Source: an uncultured Nitrososphaeraceae archaeon
GTDB lineage: Archaea; Thermoproteota; Nitrososphaeria; Nitrososphaerales; Nitrososphaeraceae
Direction: 5' to 3'
Assembly: GCA_963779615.1 (NCBI GenBank)
Contig: CAVZZA010000005.1
Location: 512,001-576,000, forward strand
Length of the DNA stretch: 64,000 nt
The position numbers were made by a program, and so were the translations under genes. The stretch's first letter is position 1. Every line of letters begins with the position of its first letter. Below are positions 1 to 11,259 of the stretch, one piece after another. The notes beneath the pieces are model-generated. The model had not been told where the DNA came from, did no database searches, and was given only the letters and a program-made list of their open reading frames with translations.

Positions 1-3
1 TAT

Positions 4-639
4 TTATTGCTTTTTTGCTGTTGTTGTAGTGCTGTAGTCTGTGGATGAGGAGGAGGAAGGTGTAGAGGCGGACACACTGACGCTAGAGTTTGCTGCTGCG
101 TCTTTGGCTGCCGCTGTCAGGTGTCTTGAGTTTTGCTCAAATGTTTTTGCCGTGTTTACGCCCATGTTTGACAGGTGCTTTGAGTTGTCCTTTGCCTGTT
201 GCAAAACTGTTTTCCATGAGTCCAGGTTTGAGAATATCACGTTGTTTGTGAGTCTGATTGCTGACACTGTGTTGTCTGCTACATTGCTGACAAACCTTGC
301 GTATGCCTTGGTTGCTGCGTCAGGGTATGAGAACCTTGTGACTAGCCCGTTAAAGCTTTCGCTGTATGGAGCCCATGCTGATTGGAGTGAGCTGATTATT
401 TCCTTTTGTGAGTCAATGTACTCCTCTGAAACCTCTTTTGCGGTTTGGAGTGATTGCTCCTGGTAGCTGTTAACGATGTTGTTGATTCGTGGAATCTGGT
501 TTTTTGACTCGTCTATGGATTTTCTGATGTTGTCTTTGGCCTCGTCAAGTGACCTGTTGACTGACTCTTTGAAATCATTGTTATTGTTGTTATTGTTATA
601 TGAGTAACTTTCTTGTGTTTCTATTTTCTTTGACATCAC
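4..639 (-). CDS. Phasin-like (PHA granule-associated-like) helical protein
   Basis: 211-aa ORF with amphipathic helical pattern (SVNRSLDEAKDNIRKSIDE..YQEQ..SQKEIISSLQSAW) recalling Nitrososphaeraceae phasin-like paralogs; Ser/Thr tail; TATA-like CTTTATATAG about 20-28 bp upstream. Confidence 0.6.
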   Translation of the reverse strand: MMSKKIETQESYSYNNNNNNNDFKESVNRSLDEAKDNIRKSIDESKNQIPRINNIVNSYQEQSLQTAKEVSEEYIDSQKEIISSLQSAWAPYSESFNGLVTRFSYPDAATKAYARFVSNVADNTVSAIRLTNNVIFSNLDSWKTVLQQAKDNSKHLSNMGVNTAKTFEQNSRHLTAAAKDAAANSSVSVSASTPSSSSSTDYSTTTTAKKQ

Positions 640-865
640 TATCTGTTGGTTGGCATCCTATATAAAGACTGGTATTAAACGGTTTTTAATGTCAATAATT
701 TACAGAAGGGTGGTCAACCGCATGTGCATAGATGTCAGATGGCAGCAGCACCGTAACCTTGACCATGTAAATCATCAGCATAATCTGGACGTCTACTTTT
801 ATCAATGATAGGCAGAGTTGGTTTTCGGTATTGGATAGCCCCCTTTTGCAAGGCGACAAGATCAC

Positions 866-934
866 AGCCAAAATTACAGTAGCGGCGGGTCCGGAGGGCT
901 TTGTGCCGATATCGGTCCTTTAAAATAGATTCTT
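866..934 (+). repeat. att-like site 1 (tRNA-3'-end core, right-arm type A)
   Basis: GCGGGTCCGGAGGG at 885-898 followed by CTTTGTGCCGATATCGGTCCTTTAAAATAGATTCT, near-identical to 7098-7146. Confidence 0.8.
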
Positions 935-1247
935 ATTTTTTAGGCGATGTTAAATTATTTAAAGATTTACTTTTGATGGACATTATTTTAATAAGAAAAC
1001 AGACTCCACTTTTACATGGAGTTGAAATACTACACGATTTGTCCTGTGAATGGCATTAGTCTTACTGTAAATCAAAAGATCTTATATGACAATTTATCTC
1101 CATACTTATATAATTGTCCTACCATGACAAACTACGCCCAACATAAGTGGAGAATCTAGTCCTGATTATGGTGTTAAGCAAATCTCCCAAGCAACTGAAA
1201 TAAAGAATCTTTACTTCGATCTTTTAAAGTCACCTAAAAAGGAAATA

Positions 1248-2875
1248 ATGCTGATTTTGCCTACCAGTAATGCCTTTGAGCGTCACGTGCGAATTGGAAT
1301 ATTTGGTTTATTAAGGCAGGTTGAAAGAGAGAAAAACCTCCGGGTTAGAGTTAGGATGCTGGTGCCAGTGGAAAACTTAAAATACAGTGAGGAAATAGTG
1401 CAAGAAACATTTTCTTCAAAAGAAAACTATGAGCAAGATCCCAGTAACAATATCCATATACGGTATATCGCCGAGCAACGGTCTGTCGACCTACAAGAAA
1501 CCATCCTGATAGTGGACAGGGAAACCTCCCTCATAATTGAATTGATGGATGACACGAAAGCTGCTTTTGAAGAGGCAATAGGTCTGGCAACCTACTCTAA
1601 CAGCAAATCAACAGTGTTGTCCTATGTCTCAATATTTGAAAGCCTGTGGGGGCAAACAGAGATGTATCAGGAACTAAACCATCTATACAAGCGGCTCCAA
1701 GACCACGACAAGATGCAAAACGAGTTTATCAGCATTGCAGCCCATGAACTGAGAACCCCCATACAACCAATACTTGGACTGTCCGAACTCCTTCTTTCCA
1801 GGAAGGTGAACATCGAGCAGGAACAAGAGTTGCTAAACGTCATAATCAGAAACGCAAAAAGGCTGCGAAAGATTTCAGAAAACATACTTGATGCAACAAA
1901 AATTGAGAGTCAGCAGTTAAATGTTGACAAGCAATACTTTGGGTTAAATGACATGATAGCAAATGTTCTTGCAGAGAACAAAAAACTGCTGGAAGGCAAC
2001 AACCAAAGAAAAATAATGTTAGCATACTCCAGCAATGATGACAACATTGTTGTAAAGGCAGATTCAGAGAGCTAACTCAGGTTGTCTCGAATCTTTTGGG
2101 TAATGCCATCAAATTCACCCAGAGCGGGGAGATATCCGTTAATGTTGCAAAGGATGAATCCGATCAACAAATTATCGTCAGTGTGACCGACACGGGTCAG
2201 GGTATCGATCCTGAAATAATGCCAAGGCTGTTTTCAAAATTTGCCACAAAATCCATTGCAGGGACAGGATTGGGCCTGTACATATCCAAAAGAATCATTG
2301 AAGCCCATGGAGGCAAAATGTGGGCCGAGAACAATCCAGATGGAACAGGTGCCACATTCTCATTTACGATCCCACTGGTAACTCAGCAAGGCCATAAGGA
2401 AAGCATGGTTATCGACACTGTTTCCACCATGAACAACGGCATTGGGGAAGGGGTAAGGAAGGGAAGTGTGTATCATACCACCCATAAGGCAAAAACAAAG
2501 CGGATATTTTTGGTGGACGATGACCAGGATCACACTGTTACCTTCAAGTTGGGTTTGGAGCTCGCAGGATTTGAAGTTGATGCGTATAATGATTCAGCAA
2601 TCGCATTGTCAAAGTTCAGGCCGGACTACTATGACCTGCTGCTAATTGATGTCAAAATGCCAAAGATTGATGGATTAGAGCTTTATGAAAAGATAAGGAA
2701 AATGGACAACAAAGTTGTGGTGTGGTTTATCACCGCATATGAAACGTATTACAGATCATTAAAAGCAGTCTCACCAACGTCAAAAGGAGAAATGAGTCCA
2801 GGTCCTGTCATTGAAAAACCCATTGAGATAGACAGGCTAGTGAAGCAAATAAAGACAGAGTTGCATCTCAGATAG
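1248..2875 (+). pseudogene. Hybrid sensor histidine kinase/response regulator (HisKA-HATPase-REC), frameshifted
   Basis: H-box AAHELRTP in 1248-2075; N/G boxes (NAIKF, DTGQG, GTGLGL) and receiver (VDDD..DVKMP) in 2096-2875; adding one base at about 2070 (GAGAG^CTAACTCAG) restores DSE-R-LTQVVSNLLGNAIKF. Confidence 0.85.
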
Positions 2876-2996
2876 GCATCCCTTGTCACAGACCTGATTG
2901 CATGTGCATATGGGGAACACGCATCGCAGTCTTGCCCCTGCTGTTTTTGCCCCATACCCAACTATTGATTTGTGGGCCCATTATTTTGTTTTGATC

Positions 2997-3069
2997 CCCA
3001 ATAAAGTAGTGAAACTGCGACGGGCCCGGAGGGATGTGATTCAAGATTCAAAAATGAATGAAACCTAAA
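2997..3069 (+). repeat. att-like site 2 (right-arm type B)
   Basis: CCCAATAAAGTAGTGAAACTGCG-ACGGGCCCGGAGGG(3020-3033)-ATGTGATTCAAGATTCAAAAATGAATGAAACCTAAA. Confidence 0.75.
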
Positions 3070-3419
3070 TTCAGTAATAAAATAGCATCCTTTCATCTTC
3101 ACTGGAGTTTGTCTATACTTATTTTCTCCATAGGCCATGTGAATCCCATTTATGGTTATTGCAAGTCCAGACCTTGATTCATTCCGTCAATAATGCCGTC
3201 TCCTGGCTGGATGGGCCATCCATCGTAAAGTACTTTCTCCCCTCAATAGACGTTTGTTAAGGCTATTGAGGCGGTTCTATTTGTTCAGGAAGACCTGACG
3301 TTCTTTCAATCCTTTTTTGTAGCCAAAAGATAAAGTGTAACGGGCTCTTCACATTCCTCTTCTCTTATCCACAGAACGTGGAAGTTTTCATCAGACATTA
3401 AATTTAAGGTTTCTTAGTT

Positions 3420-3960
3420 TGAAGGGAATCGAATCTCAAATCCGTATATATCACAAATCCCATTTTCAACCTCAACGCCCTTACCACAGAATTTGCCATT
3501 ATGGTTTCTTGCCGAAAAGAAGTTTAGGCCATTTGGCTTTAGCACTATTTATTTCTGAAAGTATGGAATGAATTTCTTCTAAAGAAAACCTCGTGTTAAG
3601 CAGCATGTGGGGGAATACACCGCATCAAGATGAGCATCTGGAAAAGGAAACGGTTTATTGACATCGTAAACTCGCGGTTCTATTTTTAATTTTTTTCCTG
3701 TGCCATTTCACATAATATTTCGATAGCCGTGATGGAGTAGTAGTCCAATGCATCTACCGAAAGGCCTTTGGAAGCAAAAAATACCGTATCCCTGCCGTGA
3801 CCGGCCCCAATCTCCAATATCCCCTCTACATTGTTTGCCCTCATATCACCAAAACAAAGCATGGCAAAGCTGCTGGGTTCCTCCCCAATGAAACTGCCGT
3901 CTGAACCGTATACCCTGTTCCAAGCTTCACTGAACTCCTTTGTTTCTAGTCCTTTGTTAT
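3420..3960 (-). pseudogene. Class I SAM-dependent methyltransferase, fragmented
   Basis: ILEIGAGHGRDTVFF..VDALDY motif in ORF 3686-4024; C-terminal half (KPNGLNFFSARNHNGKFCGKGVEVENGI) continues in broken frames. Confidence 0.75.
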
Positions 3961-4067
3961 CATCATCTTTCCTTTTTTTTGTAGTGATAGAGTGCAGACA
4001 ATGCAATGTAATCATCAGACACAAAAAATGAACTTTTTTGTTCTATGAGATCTCAAAAATTTATGGA

Positions 4068-4883
4068 TTAGTGCTGCATCATTGCCATAGGCATTTTATC
4101 TGCAGTTTTGTTTGCCGCTGCCTCCTCAGGACCCATCATTGTTTTGGTTGAAATAGAACGGTCTATTCCAATTCCGCTAATCAGTGTTCCAAACATTTCG
4201 TTTGAGCTTGAGAAATGCCCCCCTGTTTTATTTACATCAATTGTGAGCCCTAGAACTTTCTTACCCATGAGGTGGACAATCAGGGGAACCTGGTCGTATT
4301 CCAACCCATTGTCAGAGTGAATATCTGCTGTTCCAGTTACAACTATGTCATTGCCTGTAGGAAATACATTATTCGATGAAAAGTTTTTGATTGTGTGGTT
4401 GTGCGAAAGGCTTCCGTCTGGCTTTATCATGGTGAAATCGGCAGCAAAGTTTGCTTTGTAGTTGCTGGCACTTGTCTGATTGTTGTCATTGTTGTTGTTG
4501 TTACCGTCATTATATGTCACATTATTTATTTGAAGGTTCCAAAACCCACCTTGAATCCATGTGACAACTCCCTCTTTAATCTGGTTGTTTGCAAAATGCC
4601 CTGATGCCTCCATTATGCTTTCAGGCTTGTTTTGGTTGTTTGTGTCTTTGTCTGTCGGCGAGATATTTGCAGAAGGTTGTTGTTGTTGTTGTGCAATAGC
4701 CTGCGGGATGTCGTTATTGGTATGTGATAAAGGTTTTGTTGGTATGCCTGTTGGCAGGTTTTGAAATGCTGTTATAAACAAAAATCCAATGAGAATTATG
4801 GTGTGCATGTTGTCCTTGACTGAATATTGAAGAAAATTGCTCCCCATATAGTATTTTTTATTGTTGTTGTTTATAAAAAGCAC
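4068..4883 (-). CDS. Secreted hypothetical protein (start probably near 4808)
   Basis: Hydrophobic N-terminus, AIAQ cleavage-like site, beta-rich core, Met-rich tail. Confidence 0.7.
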   Translation of the reverse strand: MLFINNNNKKYYMGSNFLQYSVKDNMHTIILIGFLFITAFQNLPTGIPTKPLSHTNNDIPQAIAQQQQQPSANISPTDKDTNNQNKPESIMEASGHFANNQIKEGVVTWIQGGFWNLQINNVTYNDGNNNNNDNNQTSASNYKANFAADFTMIKPDGSLSHNHTIKNFSSNNVFPTGNDIVVTGTADIHSDNGLEYDQVPLIVHLMGKKVLGLTIDVNKTGGHFSSSNEMFGTLISGIGIDRSISTKTMMGPEEAAANKTADKMPMAMMQH

Positions 4884-4903
4884 CCATAAATTGAAAAATC
4901 AAA

Positions 4904-4921
4904 TTTTGAGGGCCCTCAAAA
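4904..4921. promoter_or_regulatory. Perfect 18-bp palindrome, candidate operator
   Basis: TTTTGAGGGCCCTCAAAA upstream of the 4068-4883 gene. Confidence 0.4.
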
Positions 4922-5351
4922 GGACGGCCGGTTGGCGGTTTTTTTGCTTTTGTCATTTGAATCCTTAATGCGGCTGAGAGAAACCATTTGAAAAGGTATT
5001 TGTTTCTATTAATAGAGAATTGGAAATCTACAAAACCTGAATAAACCATTTATTTGACCATTTAACCATCCACCGCAATAGTTCTAAGGGAGTACAAGAA
5101 TGAGTCGGCCCCTTTCTAAAATTGTTTTATGGCCTAAAGAAAAACAGTACCAGAGTAAAGGACATCAGATACGCCATGGACAGCATGAACGCCATAATGG
5201 CCTAGAGCAGCGAAGGGGCAAAATGAAGGAGGAGGAGGAGGTTCATTCGCTAAAAGAGGAGAGGACATTGTTGGACAACCTGGGCGACATCAAAAGGGCA
5301 TGTTGTTGAATGTCCGCTTAATACCATTCTGAAAGAAGGTTTGACTGGTCT

Positions 5352-5609
5352 CTATTTTATAAACTCTATAATTGCTTGTCTTGGGTCAATGTTGTTTTCA
5401 TTCAAAGTTTCCAACAGTTTTAGTGGGTCTTTGGCGCTGTAGACTTTCCGGTTCTTTACTGCAACAAACTCGTTTTTGTGCTTTAGGCAAAGTTCGTCGT
5501 GCTTATCACTAAAGTACTCGAAATCCTTTTCATACTCTTTTGATAGTTCCCTTTCTTCACCCTTGACGGCTTTTCTCTTGCCCACACCCATAAGATAGGT
5601 CTCACTCAA
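5352..5609 (-). CDS. Small DUF5678-like protein
   Basis: DFEYFSDKHDELCLKHKNEFVAVKNRKV..KDPLKLL pattern. Confidence 0.6.
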   Translation of the reverse strand: MSETYLMGVGKRKAVKGEERELSKEYEKDFEYFSDKHDELCLKHKNEFVAVKNRKVYSAKDPLKLLETLNENNIDPRQAIIEFIK

Positions 5610-5848
5610 AAATACTTTTTGATATCAAAAGCTGTTATCCAATACCATTATAAATTCATAAAAAGATGTAACCGGGTGTTGTTTGTCAGCCACAATGAAC
5701 ACAGGTTTTAACATGTTCCTGATATAGCATGTTCGCCCTTTCACCGTCTCTTGTCCATCTTCTCAACCAATTAATTTTCGAGTTGTTCCTAAATATTTGA
5801 TGCACTAAATTACTCACATTTTGTAAAGGAATTACTATTGAGTTTGAA

Positions 5849-5913
5849 CCCAATAAATAGTCAATTTGATGCGGGCCCGGTGGGGTGCGGTTCAAAAATT
5901 AATGAAACCTAAA
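5849..5913 (+). repeat. att-like site 3 (right-arm type B)
   Basis: CCCAATAAATAGTCAATTTGAT-GCGGGCCCGGTGGG(5871-5884)-GTGCGGTTCAAAAATTAATGAAACCTAAA. Confidence 0.8.
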
Positions 5914-6160
5914 CTGGTTTATTTGTATTTCAATAAATGTTATAAGATATTATTCTAACGATTGTAAAAAAAGAACAACAAGGTTATTGTCCAAGTTCAT
6001 CGTAACCAAATTACCATAAAATTACTACAGGCCACATTTTACAGTCAACATAGAATTGAGAGGATATCAGTAAAAATAAAAAAAGGATTCTTTTAAATTT
6101 TTTACACATGTGTTTAGATGTTGGTCATGTTAAATTGAGTGATGTTTACACAGCATAACT

Positions 6161-6730
6161 CTATGGTCCGAATGCCAATCCGGAGTCCTTTAGACACTTT
6201 ATCAAGTTGTTGATTAATTCATCTGAAAGGGCAAACTGTTCCTTTAAGTAATCCCTAATCAACGATTCTGAAATCATACCCTCACTTGCCCCTGCTGCGC
6301 ATTCACCTGCAAGCGAAATCTGATTAGTGTCAATTAATATCTTGCTTATTTGTTCCGAGGTAAAGAATTTTGTGAAACACTGCTCACAGGTTAATGGTGC
6401 CGGTTGTGTTGGTGGTGTTGCAGCGGATGGTGTGGATTGTGGAACACTACTGCTTTGGTCGTTGAACCCCTTTGCGTCGTTGTCCTTGCCCACTATCTGT
6501 TGTGCTTCATTTCCCTGCTTGCAATCGTCGCTCCTGTAGCAGAAGTTGTCCTGGTCCAGGTGTTGGCCTGCGCTCTTTTTGTCAACTTCAGAGCCTGCCT
6601 TTACAGATGACTTGAAATCAGTGGCTTTTTTGTGCTGGTCTGCATATGACTGCATCGGGATTATGCTAGTTCCCATTATTAATAACGATGTGACTACTGC
6701 CATCAACAGAATGTTTCTAGTATTGCCCAT
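6161..6730 (-). CDS. Secreted protein, conserved N-domain plus variable Cys-containing C-domain (paralog A)
   Basis: Signal peptide ..PMQSYA; LDQDNFCYRSDDCKQGNEAQQIVGKDNDAKGFNDQS shared with 7438-8028. Confidence 0.85.
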   Translation of the reverse strand: MGNTRNILLMAVVTSLLIMGTSIIPMQSYADQHKKATDFKSSVKAGSEVDKKSAGQHLDQDNFCYRSDDCKQGNEAQQIVGKDNDAKGFNDQSSSVPQSTPSAATPPTQPAPLTCEQCFTKFFTSEQISKILIDTNQISLAGECAAGASEGMISESLIRDYLKEQFALSDELINNLIKCLKDSGLAFGP

Positions 6731-7072
6731 AATTGAAATTCAGACGCATTTGTTGATATAATTGAAGTAAGTTTGTTAATACTTAATATTTTGTCGGAAT
6801 TTATTAACCTGAAAAGACAAGTATAACATTTATGCCATATTGTTTAAGATGATTATTTGATAGAATCTTTACCTCATTTATCAAATGAAGTGTAGCTGCT
6901 ATATTTCGGTGAAACAACTTAAAAAACAACACATGTAACAAAGCCTTGGATGTTGTAATAGTAAATCATAATGGGCGATTTCTTGCATCTTTAAAAACCA
7001 ACCTGTATATCCACATCATATGTACGATGATTCTAAACAGACAGCAAAAACAAAAATTGGTCATAGACTTGG

Positions 7073-7146
7073 TCCCAGAAAAAGCGTTATCATTGAAGCG
7101 GGCCCGGAGGGCTTCGTGCCGATATCGGTCCTTTTAAATGGATTCT
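7073..7146 (+). repeat. att-like site 4 (right-arm type A)
   Basis: CCCAGAAAAAGCGTTATCATTGAA-GCGGGCCCGGAGGG(7098-7111)-CTTCGTGCCGATATCGGTCCTTTTAAATGGATTCT. Confidence 0.8.
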
Positions 7147-7437
7147 AGTCATATTGAAACTGTTAGGATATAAAGTTATCAATTCATATAAAATACAATA
7201 TCGTTTTTTTCATAAGAGTATAAAAAAATATGCAAGTTATTGCAGTACCTTTTGTTGATTTTGAAGGTAGGTATAAAGAACATCGTTAAATTATAAGATA
7301 AAGTTATGCTAAACATTTCTCTTTGCATTTCTAGTGTAAAAATTATGCTTATATTTTCAGGTAAACAAATTCCAATAAAATATCAGGTATCAACAATCCT
7401 ATCCTAATTATACCAAAAAATGTATCATATTCCAATC

Positions 7438-8028
7438 ATGAATAACACAAAAAATTTATTATTGATAGCAATAATCGCGATAACACTCGTTTTGGGGACA
7501 AGCGTTATCCCAATGCAGTCATTTGCAGACAAGGACAATGACAATCACAAAAAAACCAAGGACTTTAAATCCTCAATAATCGCAGGCTCTGAGTCAGACA
7601 AGAAGAGCGCAATCCAAAAACTGGACCAAGACAACTTCTGCTACAGGGGCGACGACTGTGAGCAAGCCAACCAGGGACAACAGATAGTTGGAAAGGACAA
7701 CGACGCAAAGGGATTCAATGACCAAAGCGACAACCTCGCAATATCCACTTCAGCATCAGGCGCAGGCAATGGTACAGGAACGGGAGGAACAACAACACCT
7801 CAACAGAAATGTGAACTCTGTCTATTGGATGTTGACTTAACAGCCTTCTTCTCTGCTGCCCATGTTAGCGATTCAGGAATTGATACCACCGCAAAGCTTT
7901 GTGCATTGCTCTCGGCTGGCACTCTCGATGATGTCATTTTAGAGATATTATTGAGATTTTTAAGCGACCCTACAGAGCAATGCTTGATAGACGCAGGCAT
8001 TAATCTAACTGTTCGTCCTACACAATAG
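7438..8028 (+). CDS. Secreted protein, conserved N-domain plus variable Cys-containing C-domain (paralog B)
   Basis: Start at 7438 by alignment with paralog A (MNNTKNLLL vs MGNTRNILL); same QDNFCYR..GFNDQS block; G/T linker, then CELC..C..C. Confidence 0.85.
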   Translation: MNNTKNLLLIAIIAITLVLGTSVIPMQSFADKDNDNHKKTKDFKSSIIAGSESDKKSAIQKLDQDNFCYRGDDCEQANQGQQIVGKDNDAKGFNDQSDNLAISTSASGAGNGTGTGGTTTPQQKCELCLLDVDLTAFFSAAHVSDSGIDTTAKLCALLSAGTLDDVILEILLRFLSDPTEQCLIDAGINLTVRPTQ

Positions 8029-8054
8029 AAAAGAATTACAGAATCGTGAAAAAG

Positions 8055-8088
8055 ACACCTAAAGATAGGTGTGAAATCTTTTTTTTTA
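8055..8088 (+). terminator. Hairpin plus oligo-T terminator-like element
   Basis: ACACCTA-AAGA-TAGGTGT followed by a T-run downstream of 7438-8028. Confidence 0.45.
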
Positions 8089-8212
8089 TAATCTAATACA
8101 ATAAGATTTATTTTCATGGATATACCCATGGGAATAGTTACAATATGAATTATTATTCTTTTTAAAGGACCTGGAAAGGTTTCTTAAGGTTTGAATTTCT
8201 GCATTTAAGAAA

Positions 8213-8400
8213 ATAACAATAAATGCAAAATTAGAAAAACGAACCAGAAGAAATTAACCAGTCGCTTAAGGAAAGGGACAAATGTAAGGATGACGCCATA
8301 ACAATGCTCTCAGACCAGCTTTTGACAATCACGGAGAGCAGAAGGAACTGGAAAGAAAGCAACAATTCCAAGAAAACAAAAAATCCGGATATGTCATTCT
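8213..8400 (+). pseudogene. Frameshifted coiled-coil remnant, possibly a tyrosine-integrase C-terminal tail
   Basis: Stitching three frames gives INAKLEKR/EEINQSLKERDKCKDDAITMLSDQLLTITE/QKELERKQQ; family assignment is from recalled resemblance only. Confidence 0.4.
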
Positions 8401-8504
8401 ATTTACTAAAGTAAATAACTAGAGTTTTTAGACTATTATAATTATTTCCATCATATTTTTTTTAATAAATTTTCTTTAGTTAATGTGTTAATCTAGATTA
8501 ACAA

Positions 8505-8570
8505 CCCAAGAAAATAGTCAAATTTGATGCGGGCCCGGAGGGGTCCGGTTCAAAAATGAATTGAATCTAA
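8505..8570 (+). repeat. att-like site 5 (right-arm type B)
   Basis: CCCAAGAAAATAGTCAAATTTGAT-GCGGGCCCGGAGGG(8529-8542)-GTCCGGTTCAAAAATGAATTGAATCTAA. Confidence 0.8.
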
Positions 8571-8717
8571 TATAGTTACAACTATCCTATGCATTTCTAT
8601 GTTAAACAATATATAAAATAATTAAAAAAACAATTTTATCAAGTATCCAATGGATTGGTGTGGCCAGAATCCACAGAGTAGTTGGTCAGTTAACAGGTAA
8701 GGTATTCCCTTGCTTCA

Positions 8718-9797
8718 TCAACCAGAGGGTGTTGTAGTCGACAGGAATGTATTTAATATCTTACCAATTTCTTCTGGATATTGATCCATTACTGCATGAC
8801 CAGCATCTTTGATCTGTACCAACCATGCCCCTGGAATCTTTTCTACAATCTTTAAAGAATTGACATGCGGCGCGTAAGTCTTATCGTCTGTTCCAGTTAT
8901 GACCAAAGTGGGCTTATCCAATTTCGCAAGCTCATCACAAGCACCACTCCAGTTTGGATTATCCTCCCAATGCTTTCCTATGTTATTCTGGTTATTCATT
9001 ATTTCAGGGGGCAAATCAGGCTTTAATTGCTGCAACATTGTAATGTTTTCTGCAACGTCAGCAGATTCAGGATGCAATTTTATCCATCCAGACCCTAATG
9101 AGGCAGTTACAAGGGATTTCATCTCCTCCCGAGAAATAGATTCATTGTTTAGAGATTTGTTTACGATATCGGCCTGCAATTTTATAAACTCGGGTGGTTT
9201 AGGAGTATGATCTTTTCCACCACAGGTAGAACCAACAAGTATAAGACTATTGACCTTATCTGGATACATCATTGTAAGCTGTTGGGCCAAGTTTGATCCA
9301 AGAGAATATCCAAAGACATTTGCCTTTTGTATTTTTAGAGCATCAAGCAAACCAGCTGAATCGTTTGCTATTTGCTGATAAGTGTATGGCTTGAAACCAG
9401 CTGTTGTATTTCCAATCCCACGTTGATCAAACGCAATTACTGTGTGATTTGGAGAAACACTACTTATAAAGGACGGATCCCAGGCATCCATACCATCAGA
9501 AGCGCCATTGAAAAGTATTATTGGATCACCCTTGCCAACCATCTTGTAGGCAACATCAATGTCTCCAACATGGACTTTTTCCAATTGGATGTCTTGCATA
9601 TTCACCAAGTTCGCAGTATTGGAATTGGCCTGGCCAGGATCTGTTTGACCATACACTACATTGGTAATGCCATTATAACCATTGGCACTAATTGACGAGT
9701 TTGAGAAAACTAGAGTAGATATGACTGCAATAATGAAAAGATAATCTTTCCTTTCAACTCTATTACCATTCACAAACTTATGCTTTTTCTCAGGCAT
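8718..9797 (-). CDS. Secreted alpha/beta hydrolase
   Basis: GYSLG nucleophile elbow, FDQRGIG, GTDD, AGH; N-terminal hydrophobic segment. Confidence 0.9.
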   Translation of the reverse strand: MPEKKHKFVNGNRVERKDYLFIIAVISTLVFSNSSISANGYNGITNVVYGQTDPGQANSNTANLVNMQDIQLEKVHVGDIDVAYKMVGKGDPIILFNGASDGMDAWDPSFISSVSPNHTVIAFDQRGIGNTTAGFKPYTYQQIANDSAGLLDALKIQKANVFGYSLGSNLAQQLTMMYPDKVNSLILVGSTCGGKDHTPKPPEFIKLQADIVNKSLNNESISREEMKSLVTASLGSGWIKLHPESADVAENITMLQQLKPDLPPEIMNNQNNIGKHWEDNPNWSGACDELAKLDKPTLVITGTDDKTYAPHVNSLKIVEKIPGAWLVQIKDAGHAVMDQYPEEIGKILNTFLSTTTPSG

Positions 9798-9850
9798 ATA
9801 AACGAGATGCAGTAATAGACAAAATTACTACCCTATTTACACATAACACT

Positions 9851-9990
9851 CATGTTTTCCCCCGTTATCCCTTACCAATATTGGTAACTGCAATGTTTAA
9901 ATTTGGACAGGCCTGAAGCGTTGAACCAATCTCTACGAAAGATAGTTTTCAGGGTTTAAAGGGGGAAGAGATCTCCAATGGGCGCAAGGG
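9851..9990 (+). repeat. Dispersed ~140-bp repeat copy 1 (copy 2 inverted at 39397-39533)
   Basis: Shared CGTTGAACCAATCTCTACGAA..AGTTTTCAGGGTTTAAA. Confidence 0.8.
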
Positions 9991-10156
9991 GATGGTATTA
10001 GTAACAAACCTGACTAAACCAGGAGATTTGGGAAGATATCATTTCTCTGCTTCATTGAAGAGCATCCCAAAGAACCTGCAGCAGGTATCACCAAAAAAGA
10101 ACTAGAACGCTAACAACAACTAATACTCATTTTTTATTTACTCGCCTCCCTTGTTT

Positions 10157-10747
10157 TCAGTTTCTCTTTACCTCATAGTGGAGCAAAACTACACCAGATT
10201 CAAACGCTATTGATTCAATAAGTGTGAGTTTTTGGATCTCCTTCAGGCCCTTGAAGATGGTCTTCCCAGTTCCCATTAAAAAAGGGTTAATAAACAAGTA
10301 AAATTCGTCGATCAGTTTTTCCTTAATCAGGGAAGAATCGAATGAGGCACCGCCATAGACTATGATGTCCTTGCCGTTTTGGCTCTTTAGCTTGGTAATC
10401 TCATCCTTGAGGTCGCCTGTTGCAACATCTGTGTTTATCCACTCAGATTTGCTTAGTGTTTTAGTGAAAACAACTTTTGGGATTTCTATCATTTTTTTAG
10501 CGAATGCATTCCATGGCTCATCAGGTTTGCTCATTACATCAGACCAATATGAAATAAATACATCGGTCATTTTTCGTCCCAGGATAATGGTGCCGACTGT
10601 ATCAGTTAATTCGTTTACATATTCATTGAGTTCATCATCATCCAAGACTAACCAGTCCATTTCATCATTTGGCCCCGCTATGCATCCATCTATTGACATT
10701 TCCACCTGTAGTTTTAACTTTCTCAACCCTGTTTTGTTATTTGCCAT
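10157..10747 (-). CDS. Dihydrofolate reductase family / RibD C-terminal domain protein
   Basis: MSIDGCIAGPN, ILGRK, YGGASF, LIDEF..GTGK. Confidence 0.9.
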   Translation of the reverse strand: MANNKTGLRKLKLQVEMSIDGCIAGPNDEMDWLVLDDDELNEYVNELTDTVGTIILGRKMTDVFISYWSDVMSKPDEPWNAFAKKMIEIPKVVFTKTLSKSEWINTDVATGDLKDEITKLKSQNGKDIIVYGGASFDSSLIKEKLIDEFYLFINPFLMGTGKTIFKGLKEIQKLTLIESIAFESGVVLLHYEVKRN

Positions 10748-11259
10748 CCATGTTCCCTATCAATACATACAATAAATAGTAACTGGCGATTCTCGTTTAG
10801 CATATTTTTTATAATGTTTCTGCGCCCAAGGTAACACAGGGTTTATGATTATCCAGATTGGAGATATGGTATCCAGCAGAGGAAAACCATGCAAAACGGC
10901 TCAACTGCAACAATGCTTGCGATTTACCAATGACTCTCATGCGACAGTCCTCAGCCGAAAGGGGTCAGTGCCGATAAAGCCTCTCCACAGCAGATTCTAG
11001 TATTGGGTAAACTATAGATGGTATAAGGATTCAATGAATGAACTTCATTACAATCATACAAAATAAAACAAGTGTTACAATCAAAAGGTTTGAACTTTTC
11101 GGTATGAAACCATAATGGCAAATTACGGTGGCGGCAAGAGAAAAACGGTAAAGTAGGTGAATTCAAGGAACCTAAAGAATCAGAATTAAATTTTATGTTG
11201 TTAAAATGGATGAAAATTACATCACCTGGTATTTGATAAAGGTTAAAGAGAGTCCATAC

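What the first reader, a model, noticed from the sequence alone, without database searches (positions are those of the whole stretch)
866..8570. Array of five tRNA-end att-like junctions delimiting integrase-less gene cassettes (integron-like system candidate)
Seen: a GC-rich core GCGGGCCCGGAGGG (at most 1 mismatch) recurs in direct orientation at 885, 3020, 5871, 7098 and 8529. All copies are outside credible genes, in AT-rich DNA, with spacings of 2135, 2851, 1227 and 1431 bp. The left arm is conserved (CCCAAnAAAnTAGTCAAnTTGAT, best at sites 2, 3 and 5) and the right arm comes in two alleles. Each interval holds 1-3 self-contained accessory genes: a hybrid kinase; a methyltransferase, a secreted protein and a DUF5678-like protein; secreted paralog A; secreted paralog B. 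None holds an intact recombinase. Established: CCCTCCGGGCCCG is the 3' T-stem, acceptor strand and discriminator of GGGCCCG-starting archaeal tRNAs (Arg/Lys type), and tyrosine integrases duplicate such ends. Inference: arms on BOTH sides make these attP-like junctions of tandemly stacked mini-elements mobilised in trans. No intact tRNA was seen in the remaining 55 kb, so the array may work detached from its tRNA, like integron cassettes.
Basis: partly seen in the sequence, partly recalled or inferred. Interest (0 to 1): 0.88.

Follow-up and report, generated by a model that had tools for sequence, protein, structure and literature searches.

The report
tRNA-end recombination sites flanking gene cassettes
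Five short sites built on the 3' end of arginine/lysine tRNAs separate small integrase-less gene cassettes in this soil ammonia-oxidising archaeon, and related strains differ by whole cassettes cut exactly at these sites.

Summary
The 14-nt core occurs five times in direct orientation (0.01 expected by chance). It is the 3' end of four real tRNAs in this genome: Arg-TCT, Arg-GCG, Arg-CCT and Lys-TTT.

Each site has three parts: a left arm from one of about six families, the core, and one of two right arms (A or B). Profiles of core plus arm find 47 copies in this genome. They also find copies in 31 of 34 (A) and 34 of 34 (B) genomes of the genus, but almost none outside it.

Homology between copies breaks exactly at the core. 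The kinase cassette is duplicated core-to-core elsewhere on the contig. One metagenome contig lacks cassette 4 precisely between two cores. Another joins the end of cassette 4 to the start of the kinase cassette at a core.

A tyrosine integrase family sits directly behind such tRNAs here and in relatives, but none lies in the window.

Best reading: these are att junctions of stacked, integrase-less mini-elements, gained and lost by site-specific recombination with an integrase supplied in trans. The closest known cases are bacterial cis-mobilizable elements and tandem tRNA/tmRNA islands, not true integrons. I rate it a new variant of a known kind. Ongoing mobility is inferred, not shown.

The parts
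4..639 (-). Cargo of the cassette left of site 1: a 211-aa low-complexity, coiled-coil-like protein. It belongs to a gene module present in many copies.
   Evidence: ORF and translation. Only a weak Pfam hit. At least 10 copies in the genome at 75-88% identity. One copy's homology ends exactly at base 885.
840..944 (+). Site 1: left arm (shared with the site at C5 829592), core 885-898, and right arm type B 899-944.
   Evidence: B model 65.6 bits, E 1.5e-19. Left arm homology.
945..2989 (+). Cassette 1: a hybrid histidine kinase/response regulator, broken here into two ORFs (1248-2075 and 2096-2875).
   Evidence: Pfam HisKA, then HATPase_c plus Response_reg. An intact 576-aa copy lies in the duplicate cassette at C5 588699-590847, 94% identical. 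A contig of run X3 carries an extra T after 2070.
2990..3076 (+). Site 2: left arm L5, core 3020-3033, and right arm type A, which carries a 7-bp internal duplication.
   Evidence: A model 49.5 bits, E 1.5e-14. The same L5 arm occurs at C5 590834.
3077..5844 (-). Cassette 2: ORFs 3686-4024 (112 aa, with a SAM-binding-like motif seen by eye), 4068-4883 (271 aa) and 5352-5609 (85 aa, weak DUF5678).
   Evidence: ORFs. Pfam gave nothing except DUF5678 at E 0.0055, below its cut-off.
5845..5921 (+). Site 3: left arm L4, core 5871-5884 (the GGTGGG variant, as in tRNA-Lys), and right arm type A.
   Evidence: A model 53.4 bits. Core assigned to tRNA-Lys.
5922..7067 (-). Cassette 3: secreted paralog A, 6161-6730 (189 aa).
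   Evidence: ORF. It is 47% identical to paralog B.
7068..7157 (+). Site 4: left arm L3 (the sequence that also follows tRNA-Lys and tRNA-Arg-CCT), core 7098-7111, and right arm type B.
   Evidence: B model 66.5 bits, E 7.6e-20.
7158..8502 (+). Cassette 4: secreted paralog B, 7420-8028 (202 aa). This unit is absent from a related strain.
   Evidence: Its N-terminal 100 aa are 51% identical to the leader of NHL-repeat proteins. The X3 contig skips 7083-8523. Homology to C5 202592 and C5 226417 starts at base 7099.
8503..8578 (+). Site 5: left arm L4, core 8529-8542, and right arm type A.
   Evidence: A model 48.7 bits. Local DNA hairpin with z -3.4.
8718..10747 (-). Genes right of site 5: an alpha/beta hydrolase (8718-9797) and a RibD_C-like reductase (10157-10747). 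The same gene families are cassette cargo in a relative.
   Evidence: Pfam. RibD_C genes sit in single-gene cassettes of G004:C13.
10946..11004 (+). A possible decayed sixth site of type B.
   Evidence: cmsearch E 0.16 and nhmmer E 0.18. Weak on its own.

Best explanation
The five sites are junctions left by site-specific recombination at the 3' end of tRNA genes. They lie between small mobile units stacked head to tail.

Each unit is: right arm (A or B), then one to three cargo genes, then a left arm. A copy of the tRNA 3' end sits on either side. A circularised unit would carry one complete site of about 100 bp (left arm, core, right arm). It could recombine with any resident core, inserting itself and duplicating the core. 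The reverse reaction removes it.

The likely enzyme is a tyrosine integrase of a family abundant in this genus. Its gene normally lies directly behind the target tRNA, separated from it only by a left arm. The units in the window have no integrase, so they would depend on one supplied from elsewhere. One apparently intact copy is at C4 212888-214153.

Shown: the identity of the core with tRNA ends; the modular arms; homology breaks at the core; a core-to-core duplication; a strain lacking exactly one unit; and integrase genes next to the same kind of site.

Inferred: which integrase acts, that it acts in trans, that movement goes through a circle, and that the array still turns over now that it is no longer attached to a tRNA gene.
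For: (a) Core identity. The core is the T-stem, acceptor strand and discriminator of tRNA-Arg(TCT) C4 251943-252031, tRNA-Arg(GCG) C4 214209-214284, tRNA-Lys(TTT) C1 648006-648099 and tRNA-Arg(CCT) C5 869777-869845.

(b) Breakpoints. In blastn of +-1500 bp around 33 sites, pairs with the same left arm align up to 1383 bp to the left and 0-6 bp beyond the core. Pairs with the same right arm align up to 979 bp to the right and -2 to +2 bp to the left.

(c) Arms recombine freely. L1 occurs with A, with B and with the tRNA. L3 occurs with A, with B and with two tRNAs.

(d) Duplication. The kinase cassette occurs twice at 94% identity. Both copies are bounded by a B site on the left and L5-core-A on the right, in different surroundings.

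(e) Strain differences. An X3 contig of 395 nt, depth 5.5, with sides of 172 and 212 nt, reads L3 arm, core, then the A arm of site 5, and lacks 7083-8523. An X5 contig, depth 2.1, shorter side 95 nt, with 8 shared letters at the joint, joins 8534 to 891.

(f) An anchored example. On C4, tRNA-Arg(TCT) is followed by a split integrase and then by cores at 267768, 277486 and 283849 in the same orientation. Separately, tRNA-Lys is followed by a 1.7-kb unit holding only a NosD/beta-helix gene and ending in an A arm plus core.

(g) Integrase. An intact 421-aa integrase (PF00589 E 7.5e-6) begins 41-56 bp behind tRNA-Arg(GCG). Fragments lie beside seven other sites or tRNAs. The family is in 32 of 34 genomes of the genus. 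In relatives it sits directly behind tRNA-Arg(CCT), tRNA-Lys and tRNA-Ala.

(h) Conservation. The A model hits 31 of 34 and the B model 34 of 34 genomes of the genus. Left arm types L1, L3, L4 and L5 recur in other species. G004:C13 has 13 same-strand sites over 46 kb, including four consecutive single-ORF units, and no tRNA.
Against: No integrase and no tRNA lie in the window or within about 100 kb, so nothing ties this array to an active enzyme.

Part of the cargo looks decayed. The kinase is split and the methyltransferase-like ORF is short. That fits a graveyard as well as a working system.

The strain evidence comes from metagenome contigs of low depth (2.1 and 5.5) laid at 90% likeness, not from reads of one culture. 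A 14-bp direct repeat could also mediate deletion without any integrase.

The X5 joint cannot separate a circle, a tandem copy or a different cassette order.

Most integrase copies in this genome are fragments. The one intact copy scores just under Pfam's cut-off (26.3 against 27.1 bits) and has no sequence relative among solved structures.

No extrachromosomal form was found. There were 0 hits in viral contigs.
Confidence: 0.72

Rival explanations
1. Inert scars. The sites are fossils of full-size integrase-carrying elements that integrated one after another and then lost their integrases by deletion. Nothing moves any more, and differences between strains are old events or repeat-mediated deletions.
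For: Most integrase copies are truncated or split. The kinase and the methyltransferase-like cargo look broken. Many cores are degenerate. The array is far from any tRNA.
Against: The arms of 30-60 bp are kept at about 85% identity across species whose cargo is unrelated. A unit of only 1431 bp without an integrase differs between strains about 94% alike, with ends at the cores. Single-gene units recur in another species.
Confidence: 0.2
2. A dedicated integron-like platform. A specialised recombinase and folded single-stranded sites would capture promoterless cassettes at a fixed locus.
For: Arrays of direct sites with single-gene units occur (window; G004:C13). Sites 3 and 5 form a local hairpin (z -2.0 and -3.4).
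Against: No recombinase gene or promoter module lies at either end of the array. Three of five sites show no stable fold on either strand (z -0.02 to +0.99). Arm symmetry is not above shuffles (mean 12.4 of 28 against 11.8; 3 of 27 sites reached by 25 or fewer of 500 shuffles). Genes point both ways. The core is a tRNA end, and the same sites occur at real tRNAs next to ordinary integrases.
Confidence: 0.04
3. A regulatory repeat. The arms would be promoters or terminators copied along with expanding paralog families, and the tRNA-like core would be incidental.
For: Both the B arm and the L2 arm contain a TATA-like TTTAAA followed by GGATTCTA. The B arm sits about 330 bp before NHL-family genes at 5 sites.
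Against: The core matches tRNA 3' ends of at least six tRNAs. Homology breaks exactly at the core whatever the flanking gene. B arms also precede a kinase and other genes. Integrases adjoin the sites. Promoter activity of the arms is compatible with the best explanation and does not replace it.
Confidence: 0.03
4. A miniature transposon or tRNA-derived SINE-like repeat of about 100 bp that inserts on its own.
For: There are many dispersed copies: 47 in this genome and up to 54 B hits in a relative.
Against: The two arms continue into different long homologies on each side, so there is no compact unit. No terminal inverted repeats stand above chance. No target-site duplications were seen. The left and right halves assort independently.
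Confidence: 0.01

Closest known systems
Cis-mobilizable elements (CIMEs) and tandem accretion at tRNA genes in streptococci (ICESt1/ICESt3 type). I read passages of the review PMC5704250.
   Same: Units are flanked by att sites derived from the end of a target gene. They have lost their integration and transfer genes. They stand in tandem with other elements because incoming elements integrate into a resident att site.
   Different: Here the host is an archaeon and no conjugation genes are in sight. Units are as small as 1.2-1.4 kb with one gene. Arrays lie far from any tRNA, and dozens of sites are spread over the genome. Both arms are conserved across a whole genus, while the core changes with the tRNA.
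ssrA-specific genomic islands of Dehalococcoides. I read passages of PMC3146451.
   Same: Multiple tandem islands are bounded by a 20-bp direct repeat of the 3' end of a structured RNA gene. A conserved motif lies beside the repeat. That paper reports 15 islands without an integration module and suggests they are cis-mobilizable.
   Different: Those islands use a serine recombinase. All their repeats lie within 100 kb downstream of the single ssrA gene, and the islands are larger. Here a tyrosine integrase family is implicated, several tRNAs serve as targets, and the arrays are detached from their tRNAs.
Integrated elements of Thaumarchaeota and other archaea that target tRNA genes. I read passages of PMC6563490.
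   Same: Tyrosine-recombinase elements integrate into tRNA genes, have short att repeats (median 17 bp in that paper), and can form arrays by re-using a site.
   Different: The word Nitrosocosmicus does not occur in that paper's main text. It describes elements with identifiable modules. In the passages I read, it does not describe a family of integrase-less single-gene units with two conserved arms.
Integron gene cassette arrays (from general knowledge, not read here).
   Same: Direct arrays of small units, each carrying one recombination site, that are inserted and excised as circles by a tyrosine recombinase encoded outside the cassettes.
   Different: There is no intI, attI or Pc platform. 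The sites are not attC-like folded inverted repeats. Genes point both ways, and the core is a tRNA end.

Membership tests
tRNA-targeting integrative elements (tyrosine integrase) | Direct repeats identical to the 3' end of a tRNA gene bound the element | tested here: met
   The core equals the 3' end of four tRNAs of the genome. Other sites carry the ends of other tRNAs.
tRNA-targeting integrative elements (tyrosine integrase) | An integrase gene lies inside the element next to an att site | tested here: not met
   None of the window's units has one. The feature is met at other sites of the genome and in relatives.
tRNA-targeting integrative elements (tyrosine integrase) | One end of the array is an intact tRNA gene | tested here: not met
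   No tRNA lies in the window. The nearest tRNAs on the contig are more than 100 kb away. The feature is met for the array at tRNA-Arg(TCT) on C4.
Cis-mobilizable elements (CIME) | Flanked by attL/attR-type sites made by site-specific recombination | tested here: met
   Homology breaks at the core. Core-to-core duplication. Core-to-core absence in a related strain.
Cis-mobilizable elements (CIME) | Lacks its own integration and transfer genes | tested here: met
   No PF00589 or tblastn integrase hit in the window. The cargo is a kinase, small secreted proteins and unknown ORFs.
Cis-mobilizable elements (CIME) | Moves together with, or by means of, an autonomous element | not testable with these tools
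   This needs excision and transfer assays. Here there is only indirect support.
Integron | intI gene, attI site and promoter at the head of the array | tested here: not met
   No integrase lies within the window or next to the array.
Integron | attC-type imperfect inverted repeats that fold as single strands | tested here: not met
   Arm symmetry is not above shuffles. Three of five sites have no stable fold on either strand.
MITE or other small transposon | A compact unit with terminal inverted repeats and target-site duplication | tested here: not met
   The arms continue into unrelated long homologies and are not symmetric.

The most novel reading that the evidence does not exclude
This genus of ammonia-oxidising archaea runs a working gene-cassette exchange system. 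Bipartite sites of about 100 bp, built on tRNA 3' ends, would let integrase-less single-gene cassettes be captured, stacked, reshuffled and lost in arrays that no longer need a tRNA gene. Tyrosine integrases encoded elsewhere in the genome would drive this. That would make it an archaeal functional counterpart of integrons that arose independently from tRNA-integrating elements. It would also be a main route by which secreted-protein and enzyme families expand in these soil nitrifiers.
Probability: 0.35. Interest if true: 0.8.

Novelty: new variant of a known kind. Interest (0 to 1): 0.64.

Why it matters
Accessory genes of soil ammonia oxidisers would be organised as exchangeable units with defined ends. 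Examples are NHL-repeat and NosD-like secreted proteins, hydrolases, RibD_C-like reductases and kinases. That gives a concrete mechanism for the large, variable genomes of this genus.

It would also extend cis-mobilizable, integrase-less cassettes to archaea. And it offers a compact recombination site plus a candidate integrase, which could be tested as a genetic tool for a group of organisms that has none.

Tried and rejected
1. Inverted-repeat symmetry of the two arms. I compared the reverse complement of the left arm with the right arm at 27 strong sites. The mean was 12.4 of 28 matches against 11.8 for shuffles, and only 3 of 27 sites were reached by 25 or fewer of 500 shuffles. I rejected symmetry as a general feature. 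Only the L2 arm resembles the distal B arm in inverted orientation: the B profile hits it at several loci with E from 7e-6 to 0.07.

2. Single-strand folding, as for attC. Sites 3 and 5 fold somewhat (z -2.0 and -3.4 on the + strand). Sites 1, 2 and 4 do not (z -0.02 to +0.99 on both strands). I rejected folding as a shared property.

3. Link to the replication strand. Sites are strongly co-oriented within contigs, but the relation to the GC-skew slope is opposite on C1 and C5. No conclusion.

4. An exact scan of metagenome contigs for the core plus A arm of site 5 gave 0 hits. A degenerate B-arm pattern gave 0 hits in viral contigs. In metagenome contigs it gave 8 hits, all from distant relatives at 75% identity or less to this genome, and none informative for this array.

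5. The integrase has no significant match among sequences of solved structures.

6. A first look at the kinase cassette in two relatives (L002, L003) found only one flanking site, in G009. I did not pursue it.

7. Runs X1 and X2 gave no joints. Parts of the stretch without cover in any run say nothing.

Supplements of the papers were not opened. Supplementary tables of PMC6563490 may list elements of related genomes that I could not see.

Full report
OBSERVATION

The core GCGGGCCCGGAGGG, with at most one mismatch, occurs at 885, 3020, 5871, 7098 and 8529, all on the + strand. Shuffles give 0.01 on average, and none of 100 reached five matches. The alignment of the five sites and the two profile searches of the window confirm two right-arm types. 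Type B is at sites 1 and 4, and type A at sites 2, 3 and 5.

The left arms are not one family. Sites 3 and 5 share about 24 bp (L4). Site 2 has a related arm (L5). Site 4 has another (L3). The left flank of site 1 recurs at one other site, C5 829592.

The window holds no tRNA and no integrase.

Two degenerate B-type sites in the same orientation flank the five. One lies 666 bp before the window start. The other, weak one is at 10946-11004.

WHERE THE CORE COMES FROM

The window is C5 512001-576000 of a 3.17-Mb, 5-contig genome of about 36% G+C. Relatives of its integrase carry record titles such as 'Candidatus Nitrosocosmicus sp.' and 'Nitrososphaeraceae archaeon', so the organism is probably of that genus or close to it.

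Genome-wide the core occurs 3 times exactly, 16 times with up to one mismatch and 23 times with up to two. Four of the 23 are the 3' ends of real tRNA genes, read on the opposite strand:
- tRNA-Lys(TTT) at C1 648006
- tRNA-Arg(GCG) at C4 214209
- tRNA-Arg(TCT) at C4 252031
- a tRNA at C5 869777-869845

ARAGORN misses the last one, but Rfam scores it at 38.1 bits. Its anticodon loop reads CCT, so it is an Arg tRNA.

The B arm continues the identity to tRNA-Arg(TCT) by five more bases. The A arm continues the identity to the TTCAAAT-loop tRNAs by a few bases.

ANATOMY OF A SITE

Each site is left arm, then core, then right arm. The left arms fall into families. These are the same sequences that lie immediately downstream of the real tRNAs:
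- L1 follows tRNA-Arg(TCT).
- L2 follows tRNA-Arg(GCG) and tRNA-Arg(TCG).
- L3 follows tRNA-Lys and tRNA-Arg(CCT).

Arms assort independently. L1 is found with A, with B and with the tRNA body. L3 is found with A, with B and with two tRNAs.

Profiles of core plus arm find 47 hits in this genome at E 0.01 or better. Twenty are type A and 27 type B. One of the B hits is an L2 arm behind tRNA-Arg(TCG), hit in the opposite orientation. Cores at other sites match the ends of other tRNAs (Arg-TCG, Met-CAT, Ala), so at least six tRNAs have served as donors of the core.

THE CORE IS A RECOMBINATION BREAKPOINT

I compared 1500 bp on each side of 33 sites in all pairs. Pairs that share a left arm align far to the left and stop 0-6 bp beyond the core. 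Examples are 1301, 1383 and 743 bp for L1 sites, and 870 bp for two L2 sites. Pairs that share a right arm align to the right and stop within two bases of the core's left edge. Examples are up to 979, 969 and 651 bp for B sites, and 172 and 121 bp for some A sites.

The kinase cassette of the window (885-3033) exists a second time at C5 588699-590847 with 94% identity. Similarity begins at the right end of a degenerate core plus B arm. It ends 36 bp after the next core, inside the generic A arm, and the surroundings are unrelated.

Homology of cassette 4 to two other loci begins at base 7099, the second base of the core. Homology of the module left of site 1 to C5 828595-829597 ends at base 885, the first base of the core.

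STRAIN DIFFERENCES

I laid contigs of four metagenome runs on window 1-10000 at 90% likeness. Two contigs are informative.

One contig of X3 is 395 nt long at depth 5.5. It covers 6911-7082. It then has 11 letters that are the remainder of the L3 arm. It then continues at 8524-8737. In other words it reads L3 arm, core, the A arm of site 5, and on into the hydrolase side. It lacks exactly the 1431-bp unit between cores 4 and 5. Both flanks extend well beyond the generic arms (172 and 212 nt at about 92-94% identity), so this is the orthologous locus of a related strain.

One contig of X5, at depth 2.1, joins 8534 back to 891, with 8 shared letters at the joint and 95 letters on the shorter side. 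This places the end of cassette 4 with its L4 arm directly before a B arm and the start of a kinase cassette. It may be a different cassette order, an extra kinase cassette inserted at site 5, a tandem copy or a circle. Contigs cannot tell which.

The tool warns that joints at under 95% likeness in metagenomes often come from other organisms or repeats. The long specific flanks argue against that for X3, and less strongly for X5. X3 also has contigs over 7349-8016, so a cassette-4-like sequence exists somewhere in that sample.

INTEGRASES

PF00589 finds three integrase genes in the genome. One of 421 aa, at C4 212888-214153, starts 41-56 bp behind tRNA-Arg(GCG), with the L2 arm between them. 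By eye it keeps the Arg, His-x-x-Arg, His and Tyr positions of tyrosine recombinases. Its Pfam score is just under the cut-off (26.3 against 27.1 bits), and it has no sequence relative among solved structures.

Fragments of the same family lie beside:
- the L2 site C4 267768
- tRNA-Arg(TCG)
- C1 627500
- C2 18892
- C5 221600-221900
- tRNA-Ala
- tRNA-Val

A split integrase of a second family lies directly behind tRNA-Arg(TCT).

On C4 the tRNA-Arg(TCT) gene is followed by cores at 267768, 277486 and 283849 in the same orientation. This is a classical tandem array anchored at its tRNA, and two of its units end in B arms. Behind tRNA-Lys lies a 1.7-kb unit holding only a NosD/beta-helix gene. It ends in an A arm plus core.

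The integrase family is present in 32 of 34 genomes of the genus, often in many intact and broken copies. In relatives it sits directly behind tRNA-Arg(CCT) in three genomes, tRNA-Lys in three and tRNA-Ala in one, again with an L2-type arm between.

DISTRIBUTION

The A profile hits 31 of 34 genomes of the genus and the B profile 34 of 34, with up to 54 B hits in one genome. In a sample of 101 genomes of the order, hits at E 1e-4 or better were confined to:
- this genome
- the 4 of 4 other sampled genomes of the genus
- one genome of another family, with two weak hits

The other genera of the same family gave 0 of 5.

Left arm types L1, L3, L4 and L5 recur in other species. In some relatives the same arms flank a different core, the end of another tRNA.

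G004:C13 carries 13 sites on one strand over 46 kb, with no tRNA in the 60 kb read. Four consecutive units there hold a single ORF each. Two have no Pfam match, one is DUF1428 and one is RibD_C. Detached arrays of single-gene units are therefore not peculiar to this window.

MECHANISM

The simplest account is serial site-specific integration. A circular unit carrying left arm, core and right arm recombines with a resident core, inserting itself and duplicating the core. Excision reverses this. Loss of the integrase gene leaves units that still have both arms.

The X3 difference concerns a 1.4-kb unit with no integrase, between strains about 94% alike. So either such units are moved by an integrase supplied in trans, or the difference arose by integrase-independent deletion on the 14-bp repeat. 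I favour the first for two reasons. The arms are conserved across species while the cargo is unrelated, and the same core-to-core pattern appears in the duplication. But this step is inferred.

How arrays became separated from tRNA genes is unknown. Integration into any resident site, followed by rearrangement, would suffice.

COMPARISON WITH KNOWN SYSTEMS

The closest described cases are bacterial. One is cis-mobilizable elements and tandem accretion at tRNA genes (passages of PMC5704250). The other is the tandem ssrA islands of Dehalococcoides, of which 15 lack an integration module (passages of PMC3146451).

Thaumarchaeal integrated elements at tRNA genes, with short att repeats and occasional arrays, are described in PMC6563490. 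The word Nitrosocosmicus does not occur in its main text. Two further literature searches returned nothing on such cassettes in this genus in their listings. That is not proof that it is unpublished, and supplements were closed.

It is not an integron. There is no intI/attI platform, no attC-like symmetry or shared fold, and gene orientation is mixed.

VERDICT

What is new relative to known kinds:
- the archaeal host
- the very small single-gene units
- the two conserved arm families kept across a genus while the tRNA-derived core varies
- the existence of arrays far from any tRNA

Activity today and the identity of the enzyme remain to be shown.

Noticed in passing
window 1145-2875; C5 588960-590690: The hybrid histidine kinase of cassette 1 is split into two ORFs here, while its duplicate encodes an intact 576-aa protein. 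An X3 contig has an extra T after window base 2070, which suggests a frameshift (or an assembly error) in this copy.
   Followed up: partly
window 1-766 (C5 511397-512766): A module encoding a 211-aa low-complexity protein and a 148-aa neighbour occurs at least 10 times in the genome at 75-88% identity. It also gives dozens of hits in other genomes of the genus. Several copies lie just left of B-type sites.
   Followed up: partly
whole genome, sites: Sites are strongly co-oriented within contigs: C5 17 plus and 2 minus, C3 10 plus and 2 minus, C4 all 3 minus. On C1 the strand switches between 488 kb and 497 kb, near the cumulative GC-skew minimum at 515 kb. But the relation to the skew slope is opposite on C5. 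Unexplained.
   Followed up: partly
L066-L072 (G004, G031, G032): In some relatives the same A and B arms flank a different core (TTGGGCGCGTGGGG or ATGGGCCCAAGGGGG), the end of other tRNAs. So the arms are the conserved part and the core is exchangeable.
   Followed up: partly
C1 130155-130190; L073-L082, L092: The L2 arm behind tRNAs, read in the tRNA's direction, resembles the distal half of the B arm (a TATA-like TTTTAAA followed by GGATTCTAC). It lies about 25-30 bp before the integrase start. It may be a promoter, so the arms could be divergent outward promoters.
   Followed up: no
C5 869777-869845: ARAGORN misses tRNA-Arg(CCT), both in the tool and in my script. Rfam finds it at 38.1 bits.
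   Followed up: yes
window 3034-3076: The A arm of site 2 carries a 7-bp internal duplication (GATTCAA) relative to all other A arms.
   Followed up: no
window 5866-5900 and 8524-8560: Sites 3 and 5 (L4 arm plus a GGTTC variant of the A arm) form a local hairpin around the core (DNA fold z -2.0 and -3.4). The other three sites do not.
   Followed up: partly
window 6161-6730 and 7420-8028; L013 17073-18644: The two small secreted paralogs share their first 100 residues (signal or anchor plus a Cys-containing stretch) with much longer NHL-repeat propeller proteins. Those proteins often lie about 330 bp right of B arms.
   Followed up: partly
L013 1-337 and 3943-4031 (C4 248001-252031): The tRNA-Arg(TCT) gene that anchors a tandem array lies 3.6 kb downstream of the end of the large-subunit rRNA gene.
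   Followed up: no
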